The notes beneath the pieces are model-generated. The model made no database searches. It saw only the letters and a list, made by a program, of their open reading frames with translations, and was not told the origin of the DNA. A stretch of 60,944 nt of DNA, counting the filler, from Sphacelaria rigidula (taxonomy: Eukaryota), in NCBI GenBank assembly GCA_964200075.2. It is 9 parts of 9 records of this genome, joined end to end, with 100 filler letters (N's around TTAATTAATTAA, not from the genome) between each part and the next. Parts side by side here need not be neighbours in the genome. Positions count along the whole stretch, not along the records: positions 27,133 to 33,815 come from CAXNAA020018655.1; 8 more parts are not named here. The stretch is one strand, 5' to 3'. Made by a program: the position numbers and the translations under genes. Positions 13,598-47,531 of this stretch are shown piece after piece; the first letter of the stretch is position 1; each line of letters starts with the position of its first letter.

Positions 13598-13631
<34 letters not shown>

Positions 13632-14862: not shown

Positions 14863-14960
14863 CCCTTAGACCGCGAGGTTAGTCTTCTGTTGAATCGGCA
14901 TCAATTTCAAGTGAGAAAAAGTGTGCATGATCCAGAAAGACTAATCTCGCGGTCTAAGGG
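14863..14960. mobile_element. 98-bp piggyBac-type MITE
   Basis: TIR CCCTTAGACCGCGAG(G/A)TTAGTCTT at both ends; flanks TTAA (14859-14862) and TTGA (14961-14964). Confidence 0.75.
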
Positions 14961-17900: not shown

Positions 17901-18680
17901 TTTTCCATATTGCGTTGGATAACACCAGGTGCTTGCCAGGTGGCGCAAGTCCTTCGAATATATAGTTGTTTCTGCTGGTGCATCAGTGATTTGGATCTCT
18001 TTCCTAGAGACAACTACGCAAGACATCGTTTCAAATTTATACAAGCACAGAGTGTATAGTTGAACACAGGACCCCGTGTTTCTCTTCCAGCGTTCAGCAT
18101 ATATTTATAGCTTTTTGTATTTAGTGTGAAGTCGGTGTAGAGGGAAAAAAAGAGGAGCTGCGTTTGTGTTCCAATTTACGTGCGTTCAATTATATGTAGC
18201 GCAACGGCGTGGGTTTCACATCGTACTATAAAGGGCATAGTGTACACAAAAATTCCAGCTCGAGTTTTGACCGTGGCTAACTTTCACCTCGTGTCTTCTC
18301 AGCTGCAGTCAAAATATAATGCTTCGGAATAAACCTTCTTGGTGTCGTGAACCAACAAGGATATACGGGATAATGAGAGTCCCGTGAATGTCATATGTAT
18401 ACTACTTATTATACCGCTTACAATGTACAGTACATTTTTTTACTCGAATACTGAATGCACTGTAGTACGAACATTTTCTAGTGCTAGTTGTCTGCATATT
18501 GCAGTCGTATGATGTATTACACCGTCCGTGCAGCACAGTGTAGTACACTGTAGGTGAGGTAGTTTGAGCGCAGCAGCAGCAGGCAGCAGTCTACATCTAT
18601 CTTGATGTTTTGTCGATAGGAAATTACGTCATTACAGAGTATTATTTGAAATGGGATATTTATGTAGTTTTGTCGTAGTC

Positions 18681-19009
18681 CACACGCGGCCATTCGACTA
18701 CCCCCATAAATATCGTCTATCGCGATTTTCATCCTCTCGAGGGTAAAGTGATGAAAATACCATCTAGAGAGTATTTCATTCTCAGTTCCGGTCATGAAAC
18801 GAATCCTCTGGAGTAACAAAAAAAGATGGTGCTCTGGAGGGCAGCGCATCCTCCAAGTTCCTCCAGAGGGTGCGCGGCCCTACTCTGGAGGCGTTCGATC
18901 ACACCCCTCTGGAGGGCCGCGCACCCTTTAGGGGCGTTTAATTCCTCTGGAGGCTCGAAAAGTTGACCGGGACAGAGTATTTTTGGGGGTAGCCGAATGG
19001 CCGCGTGTG
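18681..19009. mobile_element. MITE with CACAC-starting TIRs and internal CCTCTGGAG motifs
   Basis: CACACGCGGCCATTCGACTACCCCCA versus TGGGGGTAGCCGAATGGCCGCGTGTG; a second right end at ~20769-20790. Confidence 0.75.
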
Positions 19010-20074
19010 CCTGGGATATTCGAAAGTATTTTCGCCTGCCACCGCTCATCCGAGTGAATGTTTGATCCCAAACTTTGGGGATCGGGAGATACTAGGCATC
19101 CCCCCACATTCCGAGGTCAGATCACATATACGCTCATTATTGAACGACTTACAGACCGACCGGTTTTCGGAAGTCCTGAGACTATCCAGCCCCAGATTCT
19201 GACCCTTGAGTGTTTTTGCTCGATCGAAGCAATGCCAATCATTTTCATGAACAAATCAGAAGGGTTGCTTTTTTGTCAATTTTTGCCTATTTGTTGCGGT
19301 AGAAGAGCGGGAAAACTGTGTTTTTCGGACCAGTGACGGTCGCTAACACCCCCTGATGAACGAGGTATACTTACTCCTCATCACCCCGAAAACACCAATT
19401 GAGGATCGTGTGCTGAGCACGACCTGCTTCTCTTCCCAATATCTATCGACGCTAGGGTTTTTAAGCGCCAAGGACGGATACTACACGAGAAAAATTGAAA
19501 AAACAACCCAAATGTCAGGATCAAGCGCTCGCTGGGATGAGCGGTGGTACGCGAAAGGAACCACTGAAAATCGCCGGTTGGCTACGAAAAAATTACAAAA
19601 ATCTCCTATTAGCAGCCAATCATCTATGTTGAGGATGGTGCTTTTGATTGAGGATGAGAACCCGGAGGATTAAAATCTTCGTANNNNNNNNNNTCCTAAA
19701 AATTTGGATGTCAATAACCGAAATGTTGGGGTCCTACGGGAAAATCCAATTTCAGGGTATTTCGGCTAAGACTACACAAGCAGAATTGCTAAGTAACCCG
19801 AAAAAAAGTATTGACTATCCGATTTCCCTGCATGGGGATTCGGCTCAACTAGTACAACACATGCACGTTGATGCCCACTCTTGTCCCAGTTCTTCCAGAT
19901 CATTACTATTATCAGTGGTCATCCAGGAATCGAGCTTTGAGCTTTTCCTTCCTATCCGAGGGTACCATAACTGATACTGAAGGTCACTTCGAAATTTCGT
20001 GTTTGGCCTTCCACTTGTTCCCGTATTGATGCCACGCACCGTATGAAGCCCCCGCCCCCCCTCCGACACGTTGT

Positions 20075-20202
20075 GAGCACCTAAATGTCGGAGGTGTCTT
20101 TATTGGGAGTAGGAATAGTGCTCCGTCTCGAAAGCGATGTGTGATCAATGGTCAAACGACTAGGACAAGCAACAAATGAGCACCCCCCCCTCCCCCCCCC
20201 CC
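20075..20202 (+). mobile_element. LINE ORF2 3' fragment with C-rich tail
   Basis: AATGTCGGAGGTGTC...AATGGTCAAACGACTAGGACAAGCAACAAATGA then C runs. Confidence 0.7.
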
Positions 20203-20349
20203 TCTCTGAAAAAAGTGTAAACAGAGTAGAAAAATCTGCCGCGTGACATNNNNNNNNNNNNNNNNNNNNNNNNNNNNNNNNNNNNNNNNNNNNTTAATTA
20301 ATTAANNNNNNNNNNNNNNNNNNNNNNNNNNNNNNNNNNNNNNNNNNNN

Positions 20350-20424
20350 AGATTCCAGATCGCTCCGGGAATCGAACCCCCCAACTCAACCATCAGAAGG
20401 TTACGAGGTTACCAACTGAGCCAC
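20350..20424 (-). mobile_element. tRNA-derived SINE head; a second head starts at 54141-54162 (+)
   Basis: Minus strand GTGGCTCAGTTGGTAA (A box) and GGTTCGATTCCC (B box); no complete acceptor stem. Confidence 0.7.
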
Positions 20425-20495
20425 TTATTGGCGGGCGAAATGGGGATATATTTCGAACAGTCTTTGGTGTACAAATTCCATTTGCGAGTGTATAT

Positions 20496-20597
20496 GGGGT
20501 TTGCACAGCCTCTGCTGTTCGAAATTGAAGTCCTTTTTGCCCGATTCTGAATTTGGAATTAGGATTTATTTCAAACAGCAGAGGCTGTACGAATTCC
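20496..20597. repeat. Short palindrome/hairpin
   Basis: CAGCCTCTGCTGTTCGAAAT versus ATTTCAAACAGCAGAGGCTG. Confidence 0.8.
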
Positions 20598-23224
20598 AGA
20601 TTCCCGTAGCACCTATTCCTTGAAAAATCCAGGAGATTTCAATATTGACACAGACCTTCGAGGCCCCAAAATTCACAATCCTCTAGAGGATTGCGAATTT
20701 CGAAGATCCTCTAGCGGGAATTTCAAAACGGACGGAACCGAGGATGACGTTTGGAGAATCCTCTACAAGGTAGCCGAATGGTCGCGTGTGCAAGTTTCGA
20801 AACAGAACTTTTAACGTTGAGCTAAAAAATTGAGATGAGGTCCAAGAGCAATGTTCATTTCTCCTCAAACCTCCCCCCAAAAAACGAAAAAAAGGAAAAA
20901 ATGAAAAAAATGAAAAAAAAAAAAGAGCTTCTATTTTCTTCAAAATCCACCAGCGGTTCTCCATACCAAACTTAATAGCACAACTCTCAGAACCTGAGAC
21001 GCGATATCCATATTTAGTTCATCTATTGCCTCTGCTCGCAATATCGGTTTTAGTATGGAAACTTATGTGCGCCATATCTCGAGATAGATTACAAATTGGG
21101 TGTAGGTGAGGGTATGCCTATCGTCTTCCTGTGTTCCAGGGAAGGTCCACACCGAAAATCGCCATCATCCGATTAATGTATCGTTCGGGGTTTCACATAG
21201 ATTTTAGTGTGGGCGCTATCTTCGCACGGTATATAAATTACTAGACATGGGGTTTAATCAACGAGAAAAAATCGACCCAGATTTTTCAGCAGATGGACAC
21301 CTTCCCCTTGAGTAGACGGTTGATACGATATGCGGATCATGGCCCAACTCGTCTATGTCGATGAGAGATTGCTTTGAGAGCTTAAATCTGTTTATAGGCT
21401 GGCCCGAGCTCGTAAGAAATCGTGGATTTGGTGATTCGAATCGGCGATGATTCGTCCGAACCGTGGAAGATGGATATTACACAACAATTAACGGGCAGAC
21501 CTTTGCATTTTAGAATAGAAGGGCCCAGCCAAGACCACTCCGGTTTCATCGCCGAAATCCGAGACGTCAACGTCACAAACACCGAAATAAATGAAAATTA
21601 TTGGAAGCGCCCTGGACACAGGGTCATCTATACAGGATACATAACAAGTACGGATAGGGTAGGGTTATCACCCCTTGCATGTCAGCTTCACATAGAGGTT
21701 GAGGTCTCGTGGTGAGATACCCGTAAAAACTCACCGGTTCTCATCGGATGGTGGAAGTCTGGTCAGCCATTTCCAGAAATTTCCGACATTAGGTGCAAGA
21801 GGCGCCTAATGAAGGCAAGGGGTGGATAATGCATGACATGAATGCCAAGACCTACTGCACTCATGAAACAAACACCTTGCCGACGACCGACCACATGACC
21901 TACGAGAAGGAGCACCAAGCGGTACGTAGACTTCTTGAGATCTTGGGGGATAGAAGCCGGTACACAGGGTGGCGAAATCGTTGGCCAAGCTTTCGGCAGC
22001 GAAGGTCTACTCGGAAGCATTAGTGGAGTAGCGACCCGTGGTGAACCGTACACGAAGTGGAAAAGTGATGTACGGGATATCTCGATGTGAGTCAGACCTT
22101 GTGTTATGCGAGCCGCTCTTGAACCTTACACAGTGAAAATGACCTCCCAGGAGGGAAGTATCCAGTAGAGCAGCGGAGCAAGAAGATAGAAGATACGATC
22201 GTGGGACGCCTAGATGGTATACCATGAAAATCGCCGGGCACAAACATGGGGTACTTGTGTCAAAGGTGTTGAACTTGGCTTCAGGCTACGAAGCCATGTT
22301 GGAGGCATTATTTAGTGTCGGGGAGCCAGAAAAAAGCTGAAAGGCACCAGACGCCCAACAAGCACCAGGATTGGGATATCCCAGTACGCTGACTAGATCC
22401 CACCAATACATATGAAACGAACACAGCTGGAGATTCTCTCGAAAGTTGTCAAGAGAGAGACGGTAAGGAAGGGTGGATGGAGAAGTCAAGAGTAGCCGTG
22501 GCAAGTACTAGTAGTGCTGGTATTCGGAGTACGTAGCGACATGACGAGAATAGAGTTTGAAAAGAAATGCGACGAATTTGGATTATAATGTACGGTAACA
22601 GGAAATGTAGAAAGGTAGGAGGAACACTTCCGAGTCACACTAAAAGAAAGCGCGAGCAAGGAGTGGGAAACGATAGAAATGATGAAATATATATGGCTGT
22701 CGTGGCTTGTGTATAATATACACAACGTTCAACTGTCAACCTGACAGGAACAGTTGGTTCAAGTGATGAACCCGGCCCTGGCGAGAGAGCTCGCAAAGGC
22801 TGTACAGTGTTGGTTAAACACTTGTTTGTGCAATGAGAGAAAGATGTTTAAACTTGGCTCTTCATCTGGCCTTAACCCAAATCAAACACAATCAGTCTCT
22901 ACTCCACAGAATACTGATGACAAGCAGGTAGGCTTACGTGAGGTGAGTCGCTTTGGAGAGTGGTAGCGTAAGGCTATCTCACTCTGTCGACAAAACTCTT
23001 GGACACTGTTGTTGACACCTTAGACTCGTCGTACTCAACTCTTCAATATTCTGATCATATGCTGACTCTCTGTGTACGAGCTATTTATTCATTATTCTAC
23101 GACGAATATCGTACTTCTCCGTGTATTACTACGATCTTTGTTACAACGATGAACCGCAACCGGTTGTACCGCTAATCTCGAGTATGTATATTCGGAACTG
23201 TTGTTTCTTCAATTCCAGCAAGAA

Positions 23225-24115
23225 ACGAGTAAGGTATCGGCATGGAATGGAAGAGTAGGATGGAGAGTATGTATTACTAACGGAACAACAAACCTAGGAT
23301 GTAGTGAACGGGCGAACGGAGGGAAAGCGAGGTACAAACAGGAGAATGCCCGCGAAGGGAAGAGGAGGAGATGCAGCGGCCCGAAGCAACTAGACGAAGA
23401 CCAAACCGGCAAGGGGCACAACAATCAAGCAAGGCAAAGTAGGAGTAGAAGACACGGAAAGAGGATAGGAGACAACACGAGAGCAGATAATGATTCGAGA
23501 AGGAAGGTGAGAATAGGATTGTGGAACGTGTGTGGATTCGCCACAGACGTGAGAATTGAGATAGCCCAACAAGTAAGCATTCTCGATCTAGATATAGTAG
23601 GAATTCAAGAGTCATGGGAGAAAGACGGCGCGGAAATAAGATGTAAAGTTGAAGGGTACGCTTGGATAGGGAAGAAGCGGCAGGAGAAGAAGCCGAAGAG
23701 GAGGGGGGCGGGGGGAATAGGATTCTTAGTCAAGGAACACCTGTGTGACATTATAAAAGTGATCGACGACACGCAATTCGACGAAAGCATACGGATAAGG
23801 GTACCAGGAGAGCGGGGAAGGAAGGACTTCTTCGTGGGGAACATCTATACATGCCCACATGATCGAAGAGTAGGGATGCCCCCATAATCGAAGAGTAGGG
23901 TTAACGATACGCAGCGGAGGTTTGGAGAGATAGCAGCAGATGTGCATAAGTATGAAATGCAAGAAGAGGTAATGCTAGTGGGAGATTTTAGTGCAAGGGT
24001 AGGAAAAACAGGTCAACCGCATGATGTGATTGGGTAATATGGGGGAGATAAAACGAACACGAATGGGGTAGAAATGCTGAAGGTTCTTGAGCATAACGAG
24101 ATGAAGACGCTGAAC
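23225..24115 (+). mobile_element. Decayed LINE, apurinic-like endonuclease (APE/EEP) domain
   Basis: IGLWNVCG, DIVGIQES, GAGGIGFLV, FVGNIY, VMLVGDFSARVG, NGVEML motifs; frameshift from a local duplication at ~23851-23900 and a stop at ~24036. Confidence 0.9.
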
Positions 24116-25554
24116 GAATACATGCTCGGTTACTGAAAACCCAACCCCGGGCTACCAATGCCGATATGATCTGCTGAGATAAGATTCATGCAACAACAGA
24201 GTTCGTCGCCGTAGTAGTCCGTTCCGGACCATTTCGGATCCCATCCTTGTAAGAGTATTGTGCTCGAATGCTCAACAGGGGTGTGTACTCATGCTTTTGC
24301 ATGCCGTGGTCGTGTAACCATTGACCTCGCATCCGTACAGAGGCGGCACGGAGCACGCCGGATTTTCGTCCACTGTCATGAAGACAAGCAGCATCGATCT
24401 TTCGATGTTTGGATTTTGGATAACGGGTCTGATCGGAGGGTCAGATATAGTGTGTACACCTATAAAAGGGTATCATTAGAGCTTGAGACAGCACATGGAA
24501 GCTACTGCTGGGCTCCCCAGGAAAGAGCATCTGACTGTTGCCTGATTGGTGAGACATAAGCGTGGAAAAGCATTGAGCAAGAAGAAAGTGAGCAAGACAA
24601 AGAGCATATCTTAAACAAGAGCCTTGAGTCAAGTAGTTATTAACCTATTGTGCGTGAACCCGTCACGAGTTGTATCCCAGACAAGTGATTGCACTGTTGT
24701 GCTTAGTGTGTTCCTGCACTACAGTGAGGGTTTCTGTGATAAATCCTTACAGCCTCGTGACACCACCAGGCTCCCAATCAATCACCAATCGCGAAGCACC
24801 GTGATGTGTTCGGCGAGTCGCAAGTAGGGTGAGCTGCATGCTGCTGAGGTTGGTCGGCCCGAAGCGTACTGATTATCTTGCACATGAATTACAGACCGTA
24901 GTGATTTGCTTCATGTTCTGATATCTGCACTTCCAGAGACAGCCACGATTTACACACTGTCTCACGGATTTCGTACCATGTAGACTACGTATTTGTAGTG
25001 AAATGGTCCCTATTACGTTGAGATCGAGTTTTCCACCGCGCACAATATGATCGAGCTCGACCACCATCACTGTTAGGGCAAAACAAATGCGAACGAAAAA
25101 GCGTTCAAGACAGAAGTAGGCGACTCTGTTTCCCCCTCCTTTGTGTTCTTCATATGTCTACACAAGTATGACTAGAATCTGCCGTCGTCACCTTAGGTCA
25201 TTTTGGGGCGTGTTCAAGTGATCGCATTCGCATACAGCAGCAACGGAACCCCCCATAGACGCCGTCGGTACATTGTAGATATACTACTGCAAGTTACCTG
25301 AACAGAATAACGCGCGAGTGAGGGATGCCGTTGTTAAAATGGAAGGAATGGAGGCGCCATACGAGACATGCGTTGACGGACTTCACCGAGGGGAAACTGT
25401 GGAACTTCGCATACCTTTTGGCCATCAGAAGAAAATGTTTCATACGATGCGCTGACGTATACAGTAATAGTATGGTCTGGAGTGAAGTACAGTATTGTTG
25501 TAGTGAAACATACTGCAACCGCAAACTCTGAACTTTCTGAGGCTAGCCACAAGC

Positions 25555-26330
25555 TACAATGGCAACGAGTACACACGAAATCATGTCTGTTCAGTTATTG
25601 TTTTCGACAAGGGGGAGCAAACTCGTCTTCATGGGACCTTCTATTTCGTATCCCGTACATGAAACTGCCGGCTTTACATTGAGGGAGCTTTGGCGCAGCT
25701 CCGGAGAAATGGTGTTATAGTATCAGCACCGTTCTGCACCAAGTTGAAGCGTATCTCTTGAGGGAAGTCGAGCATAGAGAGACGTGGTAGAGCACACATC
25801 CAAGGTGGATTTTGTTCTGACATCATTTCATGGCCTAAACATTGTCGCCTCCCGCAGCATTCGGTTCTACAAAACTGCACTTACTGGGCTTTCCTGCGAG
25901 TCAAGGTGTCAGCGGTCAGTCCGTTTTTGCCTGACATTCACCAAAGAAATCTAGATTCATTCCCTACTATATTCCTTGTGCGTGTACGTACAAATAACCG
26001 AGCTGTTTGAACCCAGGATCATATTTGGAACATTGCCTGAAATATTTACATAAGTTGTGACAAATGGACATTCTATTCGCAAGCGCTTCATGATGTGGTA
26101 TGTGGTCTCATAGGCTACATGCGTCCAGTATTCAGTCGTTGCTGTGGTGATGCCCATTTGACATGAGAAACTTCATACACCCGTTCTACTCCAGTAACGC
26201 GAGTCTAGAGTAGTGTACTCTTGAAGAAAATTACATCTCCCCCCATTTTACCGGGCTTGCGATCTCTTTGCTCGCCACTTGATCCTCTAACATACAGACC
26301 GACTCGCTGGCCCAGTGCGCTCGAGGAGTC
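25555..26330 (-). pseudogene. Highly decayed PIF/Harbinger (ISL2EU/DDE_Tnp_4-like) transposase remnant
   Basis: LDFPQEIRFNLVQNGADTITPFLR...SRQF...DT resembles the D.GF.I...L...G....IPPF....QF block; many stops and frameshifts. Confidence 0.35.
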
Positions 26331-26710
26331 GATATTAGTGTATACCCCGACTGCCGTATCACGGCTCTTTCGGACTAAAGGAAGCAAATGGCCACCTATA
26401 GCACAGACTAGTAGTGTAGACGTTTCGCTGTGGACCGCATCGTGAGGATGACGATCGTGCTGGGATGAAACGAAGACATTCATGGATGGGAGGGGGGGTA
26501 TGGGATACTTGCCACGGGAGCATCTGGGGATAATATTCAAGTACACCCCATTCACAGGGTGCGCGCTTGCCATCGACTGTCGACGGGCTTGTGCTCCTCC
26601 ATAGTGGACCGTTCTTTCCGGTCACGAAAACGTTTCGTGACAATTAAAAGCTGTGACTTCCAAACTACATACGAGCTGGGCCAGCCGAGAAGCGATTCTG
26701 CAGTTTGCAG

Positions 26711-26981
26711 GCCGATTATACAGCCAACACTTGGAGTTGGACCCTGAAATTTGGTGTGGACAATGAGTAGGGCATAATAGAAAAAAATACTGGCGTACAC
26801 AAGGGATTTGTTTTTTTCATGAGTTAGAGGCATTTTACCGATATCTGAAAACTGATTATTGCCCTTAACTCATGTATAAAAACAAAAACCCTTGTGTACG
26901 CCAGAATGTTTTTATTATGCCCTACTCATTGCCCATACCAAATTTCAGGGTCCAACTCCAAATATTGGCCGTATAATCGGC
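26711..26981. mobile_element. Foldback/MITE palindrome with ~120-bp arms
   Basis: GCCGATTATAC.GCCAA.A.TTGGAGTTGGACCCTGAAATTTGGT.TGG.CAATGAGTAGGGCATAATA...CTGGCGTACACAAGGG present in inverted orientation at both ends. Confidence 0.9.
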
Positions 26982-27180
26982 TGTTTAGTGACATGGTTAG
27001 AATAAATTCTGAACAGTATTTTGCAGGCCATTNNNNNNNNNNNNNNNNNNNNNNNNNNNNNNNNNNNNNNNNNNNNTTAATTAATTAANNNNNNNNNNNN
27101 NNNNNNNNNNNNNNNNNNNNNNNNNNNNNNNNTGTTTGTTTAGTAATAGCAGTGACGGTCTTGGTTAGTCGAGCCTACGT

Positions 27181-27245
27181 CTGTGACCACGGGTTCGCGA
27201 GATCGGACTAATGTGCGGAAATAATAATAGAAATGATGATAATAA
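27181..27245 (+). mobile_element. Retroposon 3' end with short ATA tail
   Basis: CTGTGACCACGGGTTCGCGAGATCGGACTAATGTGCGGAAATAATAATAG. Confidence 0.65.
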
Positions 27246-27668
27246 CTACATTGTTGTATCGCCAACTATGTAGGGTAACCTGTTGTGCCGCCCCCGTTGT
27301 GTGAACATGATCCTGTGTGCCACCGTCGTATGACAATTGACCTCGCTCCCTTACAAAGCCGTGACGAAGCACGCCGAGTTTTCGCGGGCCCGCGCTCAAG
27401 AGGGGGGGGTAGAGACTCTCCAAAGGTGTGTGCCGCTTCGAGAGTCGCAACCTTCAGTGTTTTTTGTGTTGAAGCGGAGGCGGAGGAGAGGATTTTGTAC
27501 TGTGTGGACCCCCAGCATCGCGGTTGCCGGTGCAGTATAACGACCGCACGAGTGGGGGAGAGAGAAGCGCTCAGCCGAGTCGATTTCCAAGAGTATTTTG
27601 CATCATAGCATATTACCATTGATCCACATCCCCGTTCCGCACTCCTACTTTGCCTCGATTACCCGCAG

Positions 27669-29574
27669 GTGTCCGCGGTTTTCTCCTCGACCAAAAAACA
27701 GACGTGAAGACGCATCTCCTCGCGCTAAAGCGGTTTCGGCCTCATGGATCTTTTGACAAGCACGGCGGTGACGTGGTCTTCAGGTGGATCATACAAGTGC
27801 TGGCGCAGCATGGCATACGCCATGAGGATATCGCCGGCGCGGTGGCGGATGCCGTGTCCGACGTCCGGAGTGGGGTGGTGTTGGCTTGGTCTTGGGAATG
27901 GTGCTTTGCCCACCTCCTGAACCGCGCGACCATTGACGCGACGGGAATGTCGTCCGCGAAGGATCGATCCAAAAATGTTCAGTGTCGCGAACAACTCGAG
28001 CTGATGAAAGGGATGGTGGAGCACTTCAACAAGTCCGCCGTTGATAAGGTTAGATATCATGAAATTTGGATAACGACCTGAGTGCCCCATGTACCTGTGT
28101 CATCTTCAGCCGCTGGGAAGTCACGTTTATTCGTGCATGACTTGTTGTTGCATTCGTAGTCGACACCTCCGACTACTCCTTTCATCGTTTTTCGTATGCG
28201 AATGGTGATTACAGTAACATCCGCGAATTACAGATCGTTCTTGGTCTGCGATGCGTATGCACAACCTCATCACTAAAGTTGCCTCGACGCTGACCCGTCT
28301 ATTTTTCTTGGAAATCCTTTGCGCGTAACCACTGTTATGAGCAGATTGCCCTGGAGGATATCATCCACGAAATGTCGGGAGAAGAGGGCTCCAAGGTAAA
28401 GCTGTCGCAAGCCGTTGCCCAGCGCTGGATAAGCGTCTGCCAGATGCTGCTGCGTTTCCTGGAGAGATGTGACGCCCTGAGGACATTTTACTTAGCCAAG
28501 GGGAAACACTTCCCCTTGACGGGCAAGAAGGACGAGGTGAGCCGAAGGTCAGTGTGTTGTTGCCTGGTGTATCGGCGGCGCACATACCAACTTGCTGTTG
28601 CAGTGCTTCGCGGACGCTGGCCGCTATAGATTGACAAAGCGTGATCAATGTGGCCCGTGATTCTTGGAAAACCCCCACCCACCGTGGTGGCGAAATTCTC
28701 ATCCTGCCCCTCTCCTTGATTGAGTCATGACAAGATTGTCGTCTTGTTCGAGCGTCACTGAACGCCTGTTTAAACCGCCTAAAAACAATGTTACGTTTAT
28801 AGGTCGAGGAGGTATACAGTATCGTCAATGAGGTGAAGGGGGTAATCGTGTACTCAAAAACCACGTACGAGTCAACCGCGCAGGGTGGGCTTCAATGCCT
28901 GGTCCTGGTCGCCACCACCCCCGTGGACCCGGAAAAACCATTCAAGGTGAGGCATGTGCGGGCAGTCGGGCAGGGTAAAGAGGACGTGGAACCGGAGGAG
29001 GTACGACCCTCCGCCGACTTGACAAGTGTCGCGAAAATCACTTGCGAGGCGTTTGAACGAGGCGTGGCCAGGCGGTTGTATAACCTCGTTATGGGAAAGG
29101 CCTCTCGTCTCACAGCTACAGGTATGACATGGCCATTTCACTCCGGGCGGGCGTGCTCTTAATTGTCTCAAGAAGCTGAAGAACTCGACCGTCGAAACGC
29201 TGGGAGGCTTCACAAAGTCGGTAGAGGATGTGAGGACAGTACTTATTGGCCAGGTGAGGGATCTCGTCGCGGGAGCGATCACTAAGAGCAGGGCCAGGCC
29301 GAAGACGGCTCCCGTCGTGGATATGTTTCTGTCCCGCAAGCGCGGTGGCGTCGACCCCGCCAATCTCGAAATGGCCTTGTATCTGCGGGGCCAGTTCGAC
29401 AACATCCCTGTAGACATCCCACAGCTAACGCATGAGCAAGCATCGAAAGCCTTTACCGACAGAAAAATGCTAGAAGAGGTTGAGGTGTTGAACGTTTCTC
29501 TCGAGCCCGAGAGTGATATGGGGGAGGAGGAAGATGTTTCGTGGGAGAACGAGTACGGAGCGGTTCCGAATTAG
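27669..29574 (+). pseudogene. Spliced hAT-superfamily transposase, decayed (exons 27669-28048, 28345-28536, 28803-29574)
   Basis: WCFAHLLN (CxxH), QRWISVCQMLLRFL (RW.S...ML.R) and RGGVDPANLEMALYLR (dimerisation-domain end); GT-AG introns 28049-28344 and 28537-28802 preserve frame; stop/frameshift at ~29160; catalytic ERxFS segment missing. Confidence 0.82.
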
Positions 29575-30256
29575 CTTGTTGGAATTCGTCTGACCCGAAC
29601 GTGCAGTGCATGGATTCATTATCATTTCGAATGGAAAACTAGGGGTGTCGCGCCCTGGCGGTCCAGTGTCACCATTAGGGTGCAGATAACGAGTGTTGGA
29701 ATTCCGATGCGTTGAGCTTCTCCAAAATAATTGATTTCCACCGTGGAAAGCGTGAGAACATGAGCAAACAGAGTAGTTGACTGAGTTTGTTTGACGAGAG
29801 TTGACGCGGGGCGGAAGTGCTGACCCAATACGCAGAATCAACATGCAAGGTGTGTGACGGGGGGAAGTGGGTTGATCCCTCGAGACCGGACTGGTCACGC
29901 AGAAGGGGCGAGGTTCGAACTGTGACAATACGTAAACTTGGGGTACAACACAACGTGACATATACTGTAAAAAGTGATGGTGTGCTGATAACGTGATAGT
30001 TGTTCAGAAACAGGTCGTAATGAAGAATGCTCCTGCGGCAAGTGTCTTTGATGGTCTAACACACACTGGATATCGATGAAGTCCCGTAGCACTAGACGGC
30101 TTGTCGTCCCTGGGAACGGCGATGGACAACAAATATATCATGTTGGTGCTTTGCCGATGCCATCAGTCGCCACAACTTGAAATCATTCCCGGTCCGCATG
30201 GGTCATCATGGAAATTGGCTACCGTGTCCGATGTTCTCGCATGTTGTCATCTACAG

Positions 30257-30720
30257 CAGTGTACATTGACGGAACCTCTTGAAATCTATTGACATGAACC
30301 ATGCATATTGATGGAAAAGTCCAAAATCTATCGCTACCGGCCATGTCTATCGGTGGACAATGCCAAAACCTATTGCCGTTGGCCATGTATATCGATGGGA
30401 TGTTTCGAAAATTCATTGCCACTGACCACTTATATTGATGGAATTTTGCGGAATGTATGGTGAAGGACCATGCGTATTGACATCAATTTTTCATTGTCTA
30501 TTTCCATGAATGATGTGTATCGATGTCATGAACCAATATTTATCGTTACCGACAAGTGTAAATCGGTGTAATATTTCACGCAACATTGCCAGTAAAGATG
30601 TATATCGATGAGAACATTACCCAGTACATTGTCACCAGCAATGGATATGGCCAAAGATATGTTGGAGTCATTGTTCTCCGTAATGGATATCGATATGATC
30701 ACCACCGTAGCTATTTGTGC
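30257..30720 (+). repeat. Degenerate tandem array of 11 units, 42-43 bp, two conserved boxes per unit
   Basis: Box 1 AT(C/T)G core at 30265, 30307, 30349, 30391, 30434, 30476, 30519, 30562, 30604, 30647, 30689; box 2 at +23 or +24 in each unit. Confidence 0.88.
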
Positions 30721-30929
30721 AGCAATAGATCATTACCATGTCTATTGTCCAGGGTGTGTGCATTTCCCGCGCACGATGCTGACCGTGGCCCTGGAATTCT
30801 CCTCCCGCTAACCCTTGTCCTCCAATCTCGTCCCCATATGGAGTCCACCCGATCCTCAAGACCCCACGTGCCCCCCCCACCCGCCCCCCTCCCGCCTGCG
30901 ATACATGACACGCATATTCCGAAAAACAG

Positions 30930-31630
30930 GAGGCCATAAAAAACGAGATGGCGACATCACATAGACTTCTCGCAGCGAAAGGTTCTGTACCTTGGAGCCT
31001 CCCGTGTCACTGGCTCATGCGCAAAAACGTACATCCGTCTGGAGGAGCACGAGAGGCGGTGGCAGGGGCTATTGGGGGTGCTAGTGTAGATGAGAGGTCC
31101 GGGGGTGGACTGGAGTCGTCTCTCAGTGAGACGGCGGGGAAAGTTGGTGTTGATGAGTCCCTTCTAGGTGATGGGGGCGACGGGGGTGGCGGTCACGGGG
31201 GGCACGCCGACGGGGACGGCAGCGCTGACATCTTGCATGTCCCCTCCTTTACCAAGGGAGACTTCGTGTTCTTCCTCGGCGACAAAGCCCCATTTCTTGT
31301 AGGAAAGGTGACTGGCAAGCAGTTGGGAGTCGATGGCGAAGCTCAAGTCGACGTGCGCTGGTGGTTGCCTGCCACATCCGCAATTCGAGAGAGCACGCCT
31401 CCGACTACAGCATCGGAGAGTACGGAAGGGGGAAAATCACGGCAGACTACAAGACCGGGAAAGACGATAAAGGCGGCCCTACAAGTGGCAAGGGCAAGAA
31501 GCGTAGGTTGGTGCCGGATGTGGAGTGGATGCAGGCAGAGTTGGTAGTTGCCTCGTGCGGGAAGCTCAACTCTGGTGACAAGATTCCCAACGGAGTATTG
31601 GATGCCATAGATAAGAGGGCGAAGGGTTGA
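30930..31630 (+). pseudogene. Terminal exon of an unknown, probably TE-borne protein with an SH3/Tudor/PWWP-like C-terminal domain; one frameshift
   Basis: AACAG|GAG acceptor; KGDFVFFLGDKAPFLVGKVTG..VDVRWWLP joined over a 2-nt (GA)n slip at ~31387-31393 to HASDYSIGEYG...KLNSGDKIPNGVLDAIDKRAKG*. Confidence 0.55.
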
Positions 31631-31934
31631 TGGTCAGTGCTCCCGACCTTCCGCAGTAAAGACAGGGACGCCAGCGGCTTCGACAAAGCTTGCCATCGGA
31701 GAGTGTGAGCGTTACAATACAATTGAAACTTTGTAGTCTAATGCATGGCGTGTTGTATTTGGGAAGCCAGGAGGTGCCATGTTTGACCGCTGCTGGATCC
31801 CGGAGGGATCGCTAAAAATGCGAAAGCCGACAAGTAAAAACTCGCGTGCCCGTACGGGAGAGGGGAGCATGACATTTTTGTGCGCGGTGCGTCTTTTTGT
31901 GCGAAGAGGGCTGTTCATGAGCTAGATCATGATA

Positions 31935-32837
31935 TTAAAAGATTGTCGAATTGGAGTGGACAATGCCGATGTGCGGCGAAGAGTGACGAGCGTGCTGATG
32001 CCATCGGCATGGTCTCTGCCATCGCTGCCGAGTGTTCGCCAACGGTGCATCATACATGTTCGAACCGGGTTGAAGGGCTCGACGGATGCTCGCGGTACTG
32101 TCTGCGTTTGATAAATAAATGTTGTGTCCCTTGTGCAAACACGCTTGAAACGAGAAAATCCATGCTATCCCCGACATGTTGGTGACCAACGATTTGGTAT
32201 CCCCCCAAGATGTCACTGCGGCAACAGTCCATCCTTCCTTCAACACGCCACTGGAGAGCAAACCAGCGCCGGAGATCGTCATTCTCACACTGGCCTCGAG
32301 GCACGTAACAGCGAGAAGATCGTCACCCACCTGTTTCATATGGGACAAACTATTGTTGGATCGCTGTTTTTTCCCCAGCCCATGGTGGCATTTCACGCCG
32401 CCGCCGGCCGCAGACAAACAAGAACAGTCGAAAGATGGTAAGTTCAGCCACCGACACTTGATTTCCCTCCACGAAAATGATCGAGGGCACGCGCGGATGG
32501 TACTTCCCCCGGGTTTTGGCGCACACAGGCGATCCTCCTCAAACCTCATTTCATTGATCAACCTCATTTTATAGAACCCCTTGTTAGTAAATGGAACGTT
32601 GAACCACCTTGGCATCCATGTCGGTACAGGGATAACGGCCGAAACTAGGGACTCTGAGTTGCCGTGCGGCATGTTCTTGCATTGTTCATACTCACAAACT
32701 TCGGTTCCTGCGGAGGTATTCTTAATCAAATAGGATGCACAACACCGGGAGGCCGCGTGTTGTAAGGTATACACGGTGCAAGGAGTACAGCCGACTATGC
32801 CGAGGTCCCGGAAGGCGCTACCAATGTTGACAATGTT
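31935..32837 (-). pseudogene. Cys-rich ORF with SWIM-like CxC-x8-CxH motif, probably decayed TE protein
   Basis: ~300 open codons including FDCSCLSAAGGGVKCHHGL; a single stop separates it from the in-frame ORF 32838-33302. Confidence 0.3.
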
Positions 32838-33915
32838 TTAATATGCATGCGAGGGAGAACACGCTGTAGGTTGAAAAACGAAAGCGGAAACACACGATCC
32901 GCTGCGCACTACCGCACGAATGGTACGCGACAACTGCGTTTGTGCGTAACGGTGCGTATGACCGCGCATCGATTTGGCACCTCTGGATATTTCAAGAGAT
33001 TTCCGCCCTCCCAATCGCCGTATCGATAGCGCTGCACATATCGCTTGGATGAAAACCGCCCTGGGTGATGTAATGAAGGGAAAGGACAAAATGTATTGCA
33101 GTTGTCTTCCACTATCTTGTTGTACCCATGTTGCGAAACATATTCTGGCAAGCCGACGTCGGGAAATAAAGCTTTTCTGATGCAGTGCGACGCGATCAAG
33201 CACGAAACAAGTAACGTGAATGCCGGCCCCGTAGGCACGGGGAGACAACACGTCCATCCCCCCGCCAATTCCTTTCATTTTCATGGATTGAAAATGCGTC
33301 ATCTAATATTTCATAAAGTGAACAAGTACGCCAAGGATCCTTGTTGTGTGAGGGGGTGGGAGGGCATCCGATTGTACAGCATACCTGATCAGATTCGGAC
33401 GTGTTCTTCTTTCAATCTGGAATCGAGTCGTCGGTGATCTTTGTCTACGATCCGCAAATTGAACATCCCGCGACCGGCTAGTGTTCGGTGTGGTGACGTC
33501 AGATGATGCCGTTCAGGGAGGCCTGTTTCCCAGATGGTCGGAAAAAATGGCTGACACGAATAGTGAGGCGCTGATAACAGGCTTGGGCATAATTGTTCAA
33601 CCATATGATTATGAAACTAATGGTTGACCGTCTTTTCGGATCTTGTGATCGATTGCTGTTGGCAAGAGGCTGATCATTGTGCAGGTACGACCACACCACT
33701 ATGGGGACTTGACTGAGTTGGTTCAGAACCAAAGCAAAGATGAACTAACAGCCGATTTTCGAAAAATGAGGTTGAAAACAAAATGAGGTTCAACTCAAAA
33801 GCCGTGCTTTCCCTGNNNNNNNNNNNNNNNNNNNNNNNNNNNNNNNNNNNNNNNNNNNNTTAATTAATTAANNNNNNNNNNNNNNNNNNNNNNNNNNNNN
33901 NNNNNNNNNNNNNNN

Positions 33916-38783: not shown

Positions 38784-40698
38784 GTGATGTGCTTCCCATA
38801 GCTGAATAAAGACACGCTCCCCACTCGTATATATGTCCGTTGTCACGGCATTGTATCACCTAGTGTCTAACACACTTGGCTCTACCCGCGTGGGCAGGGT
38901 ACACCCGCCGTCCCCTGGGCGTTCTTTGTAGGACTTGGTCGCCGTCAGGTTTTGAGTCGGGCTCAGTGTCAGTTTGGGTTCGGTTATGTTGTCTGAGATC
39001 ATGGATTTCAAAAAGTGCGAACAAAATGCTGAGTATACACAAGCATGGTCTCCCGACTAGGAAGTTAGCCGATCCCTTTTATGTTCGTTGGGGTTCCTGT
39101 TAACGTCATCAGCATTTTAGTCGCGCGGTGAGCGTGTCCCTCGATGTGCTTTTTGTTATCCGTCGACGTGAGGTCAGTCTCACTCGTTTCCCTGGCGATG
39201 AGGTTACATTCACAGTCAAGTGATACCGTCTCTGATGTATCGGCTGTGTACCGCGTTCCTGCACACACAGCTGACGTTTGTTTACGCGTCGTGAAAAGCG
39301 CGTGTGCTTTTGCTCCAGTGCGCTCAAGGTCTCACGTTGTTTCTCAGTGTATTGGATCGCCCTCAACATCGAGGATCACATTCGTCGCGCATTCGATAAC
39401 GCGTCACGTGATGCGAAACAACGGAAAGTAAATGTTGAGAGAGGACACGTCCGTAGATATGCCGAGGAATGAAATGTTCTTCGGGTCGGAGGTGGGTTCG
39501 ATCGCCTTCTCGCGTGAGAGCGTCGGAGTTGAAGAGAAAGAGGGGCTTGCTTTGCGTCCACTGTTTGCCAGCGCTCCTGTGGTGTGTGAAAGTATAATTC
39601 ACGATATCGCTCGGGTACTTGTTTGTGTTTTTGACATCCTAAAGGGGAGGGGTGAACGATGGAGGAACAAGCGCCGTTGTAATGATGAGGTGAAGGCCTG
39701 TGTGATGAAAGTAGCTCGGTGTGTGGTCTTGAAGTTTTTTTCATGGAACACCGAAGTTTTGGATATTTTTTTGGGAATAATGCCAAGACTCTCACTGCTG
39801 TAGTGCTGTCGTAGTTACTTGATGCGTATCGCATCAACGCTCAACGCAGTAGTCAGTACAAAACAGTTTCTGCGCGGTTCCATACTGATCGCTTCTCCGA
39901 CGGCCACATTCACCGTCGTCCATTGCGTCAAGACAGGCAGTATTGAGCCCCCTCGCACTCGTGCTGTATTTCACGCCCTTCGCCTAGAGCTTTTTGTGAG
40001 AGGAGTTACGGATGCACTGCCCGTACATGCGGGTACGCTTGAAGGGGCGAAGCTGGTACTATTTTATGTAGCCCAGCTCACCGCTGAACCTCACTGCACT
40101 AGACTTATGATAAAATGGATTCCGTATCCCTACTCTTTGTTTAGACGGTATAACAGTGGCGCGCCAAGCCGAGTGGTGGATTTTGTATTTGCCGGCATTT
40201 AGTTCAGAATTCAGAGGTTATCACACGGGAAGAGACGAGACATCCCGTCGTCGCGAAGGCTACAGGATGGGGCGAGATGATTTTTCCTCTCCGCATCGTC
40301 ACAATCCGACGGGGATAGGATTGAACACTCTGGGAACGAGCGGGCCAAGGGTTCCTGGCATATTTTCACGGGAACGTTTCGTTTAGATTTACCGTCGCTT
40401 CATGTCCCCGTTCCGTCCCGTTCGACCCTCACGGCCCTTCTTGAAGAGGGAGATTTCCCCACTTTTCAAGATCCCCTCCCTGAGGAACGACTCTTGGTTG
40501 ATCGCTGCGATACCGCGTATCCCCTTCCAAAAAAAAAAAAAGCTCTACCCTGGACAGCAAGACCCATTATAAAAGACCACACCCCCCCACATCAACAGNN
40601 NNNNNNNNNNNNNNNNNNNNNNNNNNNNNNNNNNNNNNNNNNTTAATTAATTAANNNNNNNNNNNNNNNNNNNNNNNNNNNNNNNNNNNNNNNNNNNN

Positions 40699-43700: not shown

Positions 43701-45360
43701 ATCCCGGGATAGCCCAAGCATAGCATGTACTGAGTTTGGTCGAGAAACGCGAAAACTTTATACTGTTTTTCTTGCCTTGAGCAAGGATACACCCCAATAA
43801 GGCGTTCATATACTGAAACCAAGAAGTTAGCAATTTGCACGTTTCAAGCTCACGGCCTCGCACAAACGCGCGAAACTTGACGCCGTTTTTACAGTAGGAG
43901 TTGGACCCTGAAACTTTGCACAAATGTGCTATGGGTCACTACACGAGTCGCGATGGACGAGAGGTTTATACTTTTTGACCTTTTCCCACGTGTATTTTCG
44001 GGGGCACGACGGGATCCAAGCATTTTTTTCGAGATATAGTATCCATTCTTGGACCCCGGAAAACCGGAACTACGACTTTTTTTTTTCAGTTCTTTCGCAG
44101 ACGCCCTGTCGCCGCGTAACCCAAGGAAGGGCCTCAGACCACTTTGTATGGCAGTCGAAAAAACGGATCTGTACGCAGATTAGGGGACCTCACATCCGGA
44201 AACGCATTGTATGGACCCCAATTTGGCCTAAATCGGGGAAGCTTAGATTCGTTTGTCATGACTTGAGAACGGTTTTACGCGAATCTGAGCTCAGATCCGT
44301 GGAAAATCGAGGTCCCCCGAATCTGTAGCAACTGACGTACGTATGTTGACGTACAATGATAGGGCAACAGGCGTTTGGTATTTTTGCAGCAACAGCAGCA
44401 GACGGTCTCGTGACAGCACAGACAGTGCCTGCGAGCTCCGGCTGCTGGAGCAGCTCCGCACGGGGTTTAACAAGCGGATGAGAAGTGTTGACGCCGTACC
44501 TGCTGTGATGGAATTTTTTTATGCTGCACTGTTCTGCTGTATGTATCATCATAACGAACGATGCTGTACTATCCTACACTCTGCTGTCGAGGTACTTGCA
44601 GGGTGATGAATGACACTGCACTTGTGAACTCTTGCCGCAGACTGTGCACTGCTCTCGTAATACCGACTGTACCATCATGTATTACCACAGGGCATTATTG
44701 TGTACTGTGATCGTGCAGTATATATTGATTATGCAGTATATATACTTCACAACATTATACCACAGGGTACCACGGTACGACGCTGCTCATGAAGGATGAT
44801 TCCCTACCTCCCTGTTCTTCGGCTTCACTGCGATACCACACCCGCCCAGAAAATGACCGTTAGTGTACAGAACAATTTCAACAAACCTGTGAAGCCACAC
44901 AGGGGTACACACGAACTCGAGTTTCACGAATCTGGGTCTCCCCGATTTGGCACATTCGGGTCCCGCCAGATTCGGGATTGGCTGCCATACAAAGTAGTCT
45001 CACAAAGTTTCGCGGTTGAACTCGATTAGGTACTGTGCTGGAATTTTCATGTTGACGTCAAAGAAGGTTCAAAAACGCCACTTTGATACTAAAATCAAGT
45101 AGTTTGCGGTTTCACCGTGGCACGGAAAAGTTCCACACCCTGTACAGCTAGCTATGACTAACAATTAACTTAGTTGTTCGTCGACGAATTACCGGCTAGT
45201 TGTTTCCAAAAAACTTGTTGCGCACGATTTCTGAGAGATTGGTTATTTGGAAACAACTAGTTGCACACGATTCTGAACAGTTCGTTGTTTGAGAAACAAC
45301 TACCAACTTTATTAGGTGTGCGGGGTGTGAAAGTTCATCACACAAACGTGCCAAACTCCA

Positions 45361-47380: not shown

Positions 47381-47531
47381 NNNNNNNNNNNNNNNNNNNN
47401 NNNNNNNNNNNNNNNNNNNNNNNNTTAATTAATTAANNNNNNNNNNNNNNNNNNNNNNNNNNNNNNNNNNNNNNNNNNNNATTCGGGAAACTGGGGAAGC
47501 TGTGGTGTGAGCAACTTTTAGTAGCTTTGAA

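What the first reader, a model, noticed from the sequence alone, without database searches (positions are those of the whole stretch)
30257..30720. Phased 11-unit dual-box, dual-variable array (42-43 bp) downstream of a hAT transposase
Seen: each unit has box 1 (ccATGTATATCGATgg-like), ~10 variable nt, box 2 ((c/t)AT(T/C)G at +23 or +24) and a short variable stretch. Period (42,42,42,43,42,43,43,42,43,42) and box spacing are tightly kept, while the intervening sequence differs between units. That is unusual for a simply decaying minisatellite. 42 bp is about four helical turns. Inferences, most to least likely: (a) helically phased subterminal transposase-binding sites, since hAT elements have subterminal repeats and a candidate TIR end GGCCCTG lies at ~30787-30793; (b) a fossil 14-aa coding repeat (MHIDGKVQNLSLPA/MSIGGQCQNLLPLA), though the 43-bp units break the frame; (c) speculatively, an array processed into unit-length small RNAs, architecturally like dual-repeat/dual-spacer guide arrays.
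Basis: partly seen in the sequence, partly recalled or inferred. Interest (0 to 1): 0.72.

Follow-up and report, generated by a model that had tools for sequence, protein, structure and literature searches.

The report
Repeat array at hAT transposon end
The regularly spaced 42-43 bp repeats are real and sit near the right-hand end of a worn-out copy of a very abundant "cut-and-paste" (hAT) transposon, probably of a brown alga, where they most likely serve as docking sites for its transposase, which is an ordinary transposon feature.

Summary
Eleven head-to-tail units at 30253-30718, plus a degenerate twelfth, repeat every 42 or 43 bp. The periodicity exceeds that of all 1000 shuffles. A 13-column core (ATGTATATCGATG-like) is more conserved than any of 800 neutral-decay simulations gave.

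The upstream ORF pieces are a frame-broken hAT transposase. Its closest relative is a partial protein of the brown alga Sphacelaria rigidula.

Public assemblies laid on the stretch show that about 27245 to 30800 is a high-copy repeat family. Summed depth is 10,000-30,000 there, against about 65 for single-copy contigs. Other copies run colinearly from hAT sequence into the array, and depth collapses just right of the array. The array is therefore the 3' subterminal region of the transposon.

Conserved boxes with kept spacing fit transposase-binding subterminal repeats. These are known for Hermes and for Muta1 (passages read in PMC10368747 and PMC5499845). Binding itself is inferred, not shown.

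The "variable" segments are decayed homologous sequence that other copies keep by position. They are not spacers. The coding-repeat and guide-RNA readings have no support.

Verdict: a new member of a known kind, of modest interest. The 5' end, the BED domain and the target-site duplication are not in the window.

The parts
27668..29571 (+). Frame-broken remnant of a hAT transposase (about residue 240 to the C-terminus). The N-terminal ~240 aa, including any BED finger, are absent from this piece of the window.
   Evidence: phmmer of 27623-28078 gave 210 proteins at E<=0.001. Eight of 9 long hits carry Pfam Dimer_Tnp_hAT. tblastn maps residues ~240-378 to 27668-28072, ~370-414 to 28390-28524, and C-terminal residues (P0048 722-765) to 29338-29463. 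The open frame ends at 29571. Pfam directly on the window's ORF pieces gave nothing.
28040..28356 (+). Intron or insertion inside the transposase remnant.
   Evidence: P0001 (86% identical partial protein) aligns residues 2-114 to 27701-28039 and residues 115-163 to 28357-28503.
29732..29972 (.). Approximate extent of a nested, very high-copy short repeat inside the 3' non-coding part of this copy.
   Evidence: The depth bin 29586-29808 reaches 285,519 in X1. Loose ends lie at 29732, 29772 and 29823. One contig of X6 replaces 29763-29971 by 27 letters.
30063..30080 (+). Isolated box-1 copy about 190 bp upstream of the array.
   Evidence: Matrix score 16.5, within the range of the array's own boxes (13.4-23.2). 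Exact TATCGATG at 30071.
30253..30718 (+). Array of 11 head-to-tail units of 42 or 43 bp. Each holds box 1 (ATGTATATCGATG-like core, a quasi-palindrome within CCATGTATATCGATGG) and box 2 (TATTG-like) 23-24 bp further on.
30719..30761 (+). Twelfth, degenerate unit that ends the array.
   Evidence: in register. MAFFT aligns only its box-2 part.
30778..30793 (-). Candidate terminal sequence of the element (reads CAGGGCCAC... on the - strand). Unverified.
   Evidence: Unique in the window at up to 3 mismatches. Summed depth falls from 29,579 (30478-30700) through 6,628 (30701-30923) to 664 (30924-31146) in X1, which places the end between about 30735 and 30890. No partner end is available.

Best explanation
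The array is the 3' subterminal repeat region of a hAT-superfamily DNA transposon that is present in hundreds of copies in the source genome, most likely a brown alga. The window holds an old, 5'-incomplete, frame-broken copy. An ancestral 42-bp unit was multiplied to about a dozen copies just inside the right end of the element. In the lineage of active elements the core of each unit stayed conserved and the spacing stayed within 1 bp, while the rest of the unit drifted. The core is a quasi-palindromic ATGTATATCGATG-type box, with a second TATYG box 23-24 bp on.

The most likely function is a row of same-oriented docking sites for the N-terminal DNA-binding (BED-type) domains of the multimeric transposase. 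These sites would raise its local concentration and help assemble the transposition complex at that end.

Shown: the array is real, it lies in the transposon near its end, it is shared colinearly by other copies, and its boxes are conserved beyond neutral expectation.
Inferred: transposase binding and its role in transposition.
For: 1. hAT identity of the neighbouring gene: 210 hits; 8 of 9 long hits carry Dimer_Tnp_hAT; the remnant maps from about residue 240 to the C-terminus, ending at 29571.

2. Same element and high copy number. Contigs of 4 public runs laid at >=80% likeness give summed depth of 10,900-29,600 across 27579-30700 in X1, including 21,544 and 29,579 in the two array bins. 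Depth is 179-263 in 32708-33376, where single perfectly matching contigs have depth about 65.

3. Linkage in other copies. X1 record 3 covers 30061-30642 (100 other letters, 1 gap). X4 record 19 covers 30061-30471 (64 other letters, 0 gaps; possibly the same copy). X6 record 26 runs from 28801 (transposase C-terminus) to 30418.

4. Subterminal position. Depth drops about 45-fold from the 30478-30700 bin to the 30924-31146 bin.

5. Constraint on the boxes. The variance of column conservation is 0.0402 and the best 13-column sum is 10.55. In 4 neutral models of 200 MAFFT-realigned simulations each, the variance reached the observed value in 0-0.5% of runs and the 13-column sum never did (maximum 10.45).

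6. Kept spacing. All 10 intervals are 42 or 43 bp, although units are only about 50-70% alike.

7. All boxes share one orientation. No - strand match reached matrix score 11 anywhere in the window.

8. Precedent, from passages read. Hermes BED domains bind short subterminal repeats, a quasi-palindromic pair is bound cooperatively, their phasing is critical, and about 220 terminal bp are needed in cells (PMC10368747). Muta1 has 9 tandem 12-bp subterminal repeats with variable 3-4-bp linkers, and these increase transposase binding and excision (PMC5499845).
Against: - No binding data exist. The BED/N-terminal part of the transposase is not in the window, so no protein-DNA reasoning is possible.
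- The 5' end of the element is absent. The presence of the same boxes at the other end, the terminal inverted repeat and the 8-bp target-site duplication are all untested.
- The exact 3' end is not resolved (30735-30890).
- The hAT subterminal repeats read about here (Hermes; passages in PMC10368747) are 4 bp and irregularly spaced, not a 500-bp regular array. A regular array can arise by slippage without any function.
- The conservation test assumes equal mutation rates per site. The alignment register was defined on the boxes. The simulations realign with MAFFT, but their units are cut at the true boundaries.
- At least one contig lacks exactly one unit (30559-30601 replaced by one letter). 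Unit number is therefore not fixed, as in an ordinary minisatellite.
- No copies could be fetched as sequence, so box-versus-spacer conservation between copies was not measured directly.
Confidence: 0.55

Rival explanations
1. Passive transposon-borne minisatellite. A 42-bp stretch of the 3' non-coding region was amplified by slippage or unequal exchange in an ancestor of the family. It has been carried along and decayed without any role in transposition. The better-kept boxes reflect uneven mutation rates or chance.
For: - It is a plain head-to-tail array whose units are 50-70% alike.
- TRF recognises only its best part.
- One contig differs by exactly one unit (table 5c).
- Differences between copies and the window are mostly transitions, as in neutral decay (table 1).
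- The array shows no RNA structure, no coding capacity and no curvature signal.
Against: - Box conservation and its clustering exceed 4 neutral models of 200 simulations each.
- Spacing is kept to +/-1 bp over 10 intervals despite heavy substitution.
- Its position directly inside the element's end is where cis-acting sites are expected.
- An isolated box also occurs outside the array, at 30063.
Confidence: 0.33
2. Fossil of a 14-amino-acid coding repeat, either a former exon of the transposase or of a captured gene.
For: 42 bp equals 14 codons. The + frame from 30301 is open for 45 codons and repeats M-x-I-x-G. The - strand has an 87-codon open frame at 30219-30482.
Against: - There are five stops in the remaining 95 codons of the + frame.
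- The 43-bp units are shared by another copy, which aligns with 0-1 gaps.
- The transposase homology ends at about 29463-29571, some 700 bp upstream.
- Pfam gave nothing on two ORFs that overlap the array, 30562-30939 (+) and 30219-30482 (-). The - strand ORF has no homologues among 5.8 billion clusters.
Confidence: 0.04
3. An array transcribed and cut into unit-length or phased small RNAs, either guide-like or feeding transposon silencing.
For: A contig of a run guessed to be RNA (X6, depth 214) runs from the transposase end into the array. This is a weak hint only, because the run's type is a guess. In Ectocarpus, small RNAs are enriched on intact transposons (passage read in PMC12477816).
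Against: - There is no excess secondary structure on either strand (z 0.00 and -0.47) and no Rfam family.
- The 'spacers' are diverged copies of one another, not unique inserts.
- Their 12-14-mers match the rest of the window at chance level: 5, 1 and 0 found against 3.6, 0.9 and 0.2 expected.
- Other copies keep them by position.
Confidence: 0.03

Closest known systems
Subterminal repeats (STRs) of hAT transposons, best studied in Hermes (Musca domestica)
   Same: Both are short motifs repeated inside the terminal few hundred bp of a hAT element. In Hermes they are bound by the BED domains of a multimeric transposase. A quasi-palindromic pair is bound cooperatively, exact phasing matters, and about 220 terminal bp are needed in cells (passages read in PMC10368747). 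Here there is likewise a hAT, a repeated and partly palindromic box, kept spacing, and a position next to the end.
   Different: Hermes STRs are 4-bp motifs (AAGT/AAGC), irregularly spaced, in both orientations, and densest in the first 55 bp. Here there is a regular tandem array of about 12 units of 42-43 bp with a 13-16-bp box, all in one orientation, spanning about 500 bp. Binding is not shown here.
Subterminal tandem repeats of the Mutator-like element Muta1 (Aedes aegypti) and other foldback-type elements
   Same: Both are a tandem row of conserved boxes separated by linkers that vary. In Muta1 more copies give more transposase binding and more excision (passages read in PMC5499845). Architecturally this is the closest 'box plus variable linker' precedent.
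   Different: Muta1 belongs to a different superfamily (MULE). It has 12-bp boxes with 3-4-bp linkers, 9 copies, and the repeats lie within long terminal inverted repeats at both ends. Here the period is 42-43 bp and only one end is visible.
Transposon-internal minisatellites (tandem repeats carried in non-coding parts of DNA transposons)
   Same: Both are a head-to-tail array inside a transposon, with a unit-number difference in at least one copy and decay between units.
   Different: Here the boxes are more conserved than neutral simulations allow, and the array abuts the element's end.
hAT families of brown algae
   Same: The transposase remnant's closest relative is a partial protein from Sphacelaria rigidula: 86% identity over 113 residues, species name.
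   Different: In the curated Ectocarpus transposon library hAT is rare: 4 families, 128 copies, 0.05% of the genome (table passage read in PMC12477816). Here the family's summed depth is 150-450 times that of single-copy contigs. I did not find a description of this family or its array.

Membership tests
hAT superfamily DNA transposon | Transposase homologous to hAT transposases (catalytic core plus C-terminal hAT dimerisation region) | tested here: met
   phmmer gave 210 hits at E<=0.001. Eight of 9 long hits have Pfam Dimer_Tnp_hAT. The window aligns to their residues ~240-414 and to C-terminal residues (P0048 722-765, E 1.3e-5; P0045 857-890, E 7e-4). Pfam directly on the window's broken ORF pieces gave no hit, so membership rests on the homologues.
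hAT superfamily DNA transposon | Short terminal inverted repeats at both ends | not testable with these tools
   Only the 3' side is in the window. The piece starts at 27133, after an N/TTAATTAATTAA linker. The candidate end at 30778-30793 has no partner in the window.
hAT superfamily DNA transposon | 8-bp target-site duplication | not testable with these tools
   The 5' junction is absent.
hAT superfamily DNA transposon | N-terminal BED-type zinc finger | not testable with these tools
   The part of the gene upstream of about residue 240 is not in the piece.
Transposase-binding subterminal repeats | Repeated motif concentrated within a few hundred bp of the element's end | tested here: met
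   The array is at 30253-30761. The depth of the repeat family collapses between 30735 and 30890. Six of 11 window-wide TATYGATG matches lie in 30071-30610.
Transposase-binding subterminal repeats | Motif conserved more than the sequence around it | tested here: met
   Within the array: variance 0.0402 and best 13-column sum 10.55, against 800 neutral simulations. Between copies: not measured.
Transposase-binding subterminal repeats | Motif also present at the other end of the element | not testable with these tools
   The 5' end is not in the window. No other copy could be fetched as sequence.
Transposase-binding subterminal repeats | Specific binding by the element's transposase, and an effect on transposition | not testable with these tools
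   Needs EMSA or footprinting and excision assays.
Minisatellite / tandem repeat | Head-to-tail copies with a significant period | tested here: met
Minisatellite / tandem repeat | Unit-number variation between copies | tested here: inconclusive
   One X1 contig (depth 71.7) replaces 30559-30601 (43 nt) by one letter. Another joint skips 65 nt at 30643-30709. Records 3 and 19 keep the unit number.
Coding tandem repeat | Open reading frame through the units | tested here: not met
   45 open codons, then 5 stops. 43-bp units shift the frame.
Repeat-spacer guide-RNA arrays | Near-identical repeats separating unrelated unique spacers, with a structured or processed transcript | tested here: not met
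   The boxes are not identical. The 'spacers' are homologous to one another. There is no excess fold and no Rfam hit. Processing itself was not testable.

The most novel reading that the evidence does not exclude
The array is a purpose-built, helically phased landing strip. It places one quasi-palindromic box every four turns of DNA, so that a dozen BED-domain pairs of a ring-shaped or filament-forming hAT transposase load on one face of the 3' end only. This would be a regular, solenoid-like transpososome scaffold, unlike the irregular subterminal repeats of Hermes or Ac. It could explain how this family reached hundreds of copies in a lineage where hATs are otherwise scarce.
Probability: 0.12. 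Interest if true: 0.55.

Novelty: new member of a known kind. Interest (0 to 1): 0.3.

Why it matters
If the boxes are transposase sites, this would be a clean natural example in a hAT element of regularly phased, tandem subterminal sites. It would come from a little-studied lineage (brown algae) and a family that reached very high copy number. That would make the element a candidate for working out the cis requirements of an algal hAT, and possibly for a brown-algal transposon tool. If the array is only a passive minisatellite it has no wider importance. In either case the 'guide-array' reading that made the finding look exciting is not supported.

Tried and rejected
- Whole genome: none is held for this window, so other copies could not be collected and aligned.
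- Self-comparison: 26000-32500 against the window shows no second copy of the element or array.
- Metagenome scan with a box1-box2 pattern: 8 loci, each with a single match and no array. I estimated chance matches of this order but did not compute the number. The viral scan gave 1 locus, on a contig already hit in the metagenome scan.
- Protein searches: `search for homologous proteins` on the hAT piece with 'longer' lengths gave none. The exhaustive HMMER search then found the family. The - strand array ORF has no homologues.
- RNA: no listed holder is on record as RNA. X6 is only guessed to be RNA.
- Rfam at E<=1 on 29500-31200: none. RNA folding of both strands is no better than shuffles.
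- Intrinsic bending: power of A/T and AA/TT/AT signals near 10.5 bp is at or below the 95th percentile of shuffles.
- Higher-order 85-bp dimer: rejected. Mean unit identity at distance 2 (0.589) is not above distance 1 (0.601).
- A 13-mer shared between the last unit and 50974: chance level, E 0.75.
- Inverted-repeat partner for the candidate end: none.
- Earlier findings of this scan: nothing on this genome, sequence or these words.

Full report
**1. The observation**

Reading 29900-31100 and locating the ATYGRT core gives boxes at 30265, 30307, 30349, 30391, 30434, 30476, 30519, 30562, 30604 and 30689, with a weak one near 30647. The intervals are 42,42,42,43,42,43,43,42,43,42. Laid out in register, the units show box 1 (consensus close to CCATGTATATCGATGG) and box 2 (TATTG-like) 23-24 bp later.

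Base-identity autocorrelation of 30253-30761 is 0.446 at lag 85, 0.403 at lag 42 and 0.393 at lag 43. In 1000 dinucleotide-preserving shuffles the highest value at any lag from 10 to 139 was 0.366. Among 500-bp windows of the whole sequence, only microsatellite regions score higher.

Lag 85 is highest because 42 and 43 alternate. Unit identities do not show a dimer pattern: mean 0.601 at distance 1 and 0.589 at distance 2.

Tandem Repeats Finder reports only 30299-30398 (2.4 copies, 74%), because units are only about 50-70% alike.

There is a degenerate twelfth unit at 30719-30761 and an isolated box at 30063-30080. Six of the 11 exact TATYGATG matches in the 60.9-kb window lie in 30071-30610, all on the + strand.

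**2. The 'variable' segments are not spacers**

In units 2-5 the stretch between the boxes is visibly the same sequence with substitutions. At purine/pyrimidine level much of the unit is conserved. The array is one 42-bp unit multiplied and then decayed unevenly.

The unevenness is real. The variance of column conservation is 0.0402 and the best 13 consecutive columns sum to 10.55. I simulated neutral decay under 4 models: two star models and two duplication-tree models. Each had transition bias, five random 1-nt insertions, MAFFT realignment and 200 runs. The variance reached the observed value in 0, 0, 0.5 and 0% of runs. The 13-column sum never reached it (maximum 10.45). The simpler simulations agree.

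Caveats: equal per-site mutation rates are assumed, the observed register was chosen on the boxes, and the simulated units were cut at their true boundaries.

**3. What surrounds the array**

The window is made of pieces of about 6683 bases separated every 6783 bases by 44 N, TTAATTAATTAA and 44 N. The piece holding the array is 27133-33815. Its contiguity with the sequence to the left is not assured.

Pfam found nothing in the ORF pieces upstream of the array, and a word-indexed search for longer proteins found nothing. The exhaustive HMMER search with 27623-28078 found 210 proteins at E<=0.001, of which 50 are at E<=1e-10. Eight of the 9 long hits that I scanned carry Pfam Dimer_Tnp_hAT. The ninth (P0039) and two short fragments have no Pfam hit.

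tblastn of these proteins on the window maps as follows:

| Protein residues | Window coordinates |
|---|---|
| ~240-378 | 27668-28072 |
| ~370-414 | 28390-28524 |
| C-terminal (P0048 722-765; P0045 857-890) | 29326-29463 |

The frame closes at 29571. The best hit, P0001, is 86% identical over 113 residues. The source names it a partial protein of the brown alga Sphacelaria rigidula. It skips 28040-28356, which is an intron or an insertion.

The gene is therefore a hAT transposase remnant on the + strand, broken over three frames. It lacks its first ~240 residues within this piece. The array lies about 700-1200 bp downstream of its stop.

**4. Other copies**

No genome is held, so I used public runs. 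Six runs hold part of the stretch. Their labels are a coded organism and 'algae metagenome'. I laid the contigs of four runs (X1, X2, X4, X6) on 27133-33815 at >=80% likeness. The results:

- Copy number. 11,282 contigs of X1 alone were laid. Summed depth in X1 is 10,900-29,600 over 27579-30700, apart from two higher bins caused by a nested short repeat. It is 179-263 over 32708-33376, where perfectly matching single contigs have depth about 65. The element is thus present in the order of hundreds of copies' worth of depth.
- The array bins (21,544 and 29,579) are as deep as the rest of the element or deeper. This could reflect non-autonomous derivatives that keep the ends, or simply contig fragmentation.
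- Right boundary. Depth falls to 6,628 in 30701-30923 and to 664 in 30924-31146, with the same pattern in X2 and X4. By interpolation the family's right boundary lies between about 30735 and 30890.
- Colinear copies. X1 record 3 covers 30061-30642 (100 other letters, 1 gap). X4 record 19 covers 30061-30471 (64 other letters, 0 gaps; probably the same copy). X6 record 26 covers 28801-30418 apart from a replaced nested repeat.
- Position of the 'variable' segments. If records 3 and 19 are one copy, the array-only stretch 30472-30642 differs at 36 of 171 places. That is too few if the inter-box segments had turned over, so the 'variable' segments are kept by position.
- The 43-bp units are shared by that copy, so the frame shifts are shared by it.
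- Unit number. One contig replaces 30559-30601, exactly one unit, by one letter. Unit number therefore varies a little.
- The window copy is diverged. Many positions, and 11 indels between 27404 and 30245, show a high-depth contig (about 6,000-7,000 in X1) that differs from the window.

**5. Interpretation**

The array is the 3' subterminal region of a high-copy hAT transposon. That much is shown.

The proposed function, transposase docking sites, rests on four points:
- box conservation beyond neutral models;
- spacing kept to +/-1 bp;
- a single orientation;
- position at the end.

It also rests on what is established for related systems, from passages I read. In Hermes, BED domains bind subterminal repeats, a quasi-palindromic pair is bound cooperatively, phasing is critical, and about 220 terminal bp are needed in cells (PMC10368747). 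In Muta1, nine 12-bp subterminal tandem repeats with variable 3-4-bp linkers increase binding, cleavage and excision (PMC5499845).

Box 1 is itself a quasi-palindrome: 6 of 8 base pairs of the 16-mer consensus are self-complementary. This is my reading of the sequence and, after allowing for choice of centre, is not significant on its own.

The main rival is a passive minisatellite carried by the element.

The helical-phase argument is weak. 42.4 bp is about 4.04 turns at 10.5 bp per turn. The two TATYG boxes within a unit are 23 and 19 bp apart, and no intrinsic 10.5-bp A/T periodicity exceeds shuffles.

**6. Readings rejected**

There were no Pfam hits and no homologues.

Guide or small-RNA array: there is no Rfam match and no fold beyond shuffles. 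The array's k-mers match the rest of the window at chance level, and nothing array-like was found in the metagenome or viral collections. Transcription could not be assessed, because no listed run is on record as RNA.

**7. Novelty**

Subterminal repeats of DNA transposons are well known. A regular array of about 12 units of 42-43 bp in a hAT is an unusual layout, but it is of the same kind.

In Ectocarpus the curated library lists only 4 hAT families with 128 copies (table passage in PMC12477816), so a high-copy hAT in a brown alga is of some note. My four literature searches turned up no description of this family or array. That is a limited search, and supplements were not examined.

Verdict: a real feature, a new member of a known kind, interest about 0.3.

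Noticed in passing
window 6684-6783, 13467-13566, 20250-20349, 27033-27132, 33816-33915, 40599-40698, 47381-47480, 54163-54262: There are 100-base blocks (44 N, TTAATTAATTAA, 44 N) every 6783 (or 6782) bases. The window therefore looks like nine equal pieces of about 6683 bases joined or masked by a six-frame-stop linker. Neighbouring pieces may not be contiguous in the genome.
   Followed up: partly
window 26711-26981: A 271-bp near-perfect palindrome (arms 73 nt at 92%, further nested arms; 83.6% self-match on the opposite strand). It is foldback- or MITE-like and lies just left of the linker that precedes the hAT piece.
   Followed up: no
window 27133-27355, 29586-29808, 32485-32707, 33600-33815: Short stretches with enormous summed depth in the public assemblies (140,000-414,000 in X1, against about 65 for single-copy contigs). 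Loose ends lie at 27170, 27229, 29732, 29772, 29823, 32576 and 33763-33781. This points to one or more very high-copy short elements, one of them nested in the hAT's 3' region.
   Followed up: partly
window 23153-23887 (+): An ORF with a Pfam Exo_endo_phos match (E 4.2e-6). It is probably the endonuclease of a non-LTR retrotransposon remnant.
   Followed up: no
window 45208-45302: Another tandem repeat with a 43-bp period (2.2 copies, 81% matches). Its sequence is unrelated to the hAT array.
   Followed up: no
window 6123-6683, 2144-2434, 13365-13391, 13584-13630: Long microsatellite-like tracts (TAATAATGATAA-type for 340 bp, then TTA x71; CAA/ACA x49) and homopolymer runs (C27, G47). Several of them abut the linker blocks.
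   Followed up: no
window 27404-30245: The dominant high-depth contig of the family differs from the window copy by 11 indels, at 27404, 27460, 27474, 27536, 28189, 28301, 28994, 29075, 29667, 29850 and 30245. Some may account for the frame breaks of the window's transposase remnant, which hints that less-decayed copies exist elsewhere in the genome.
   Followed up: no
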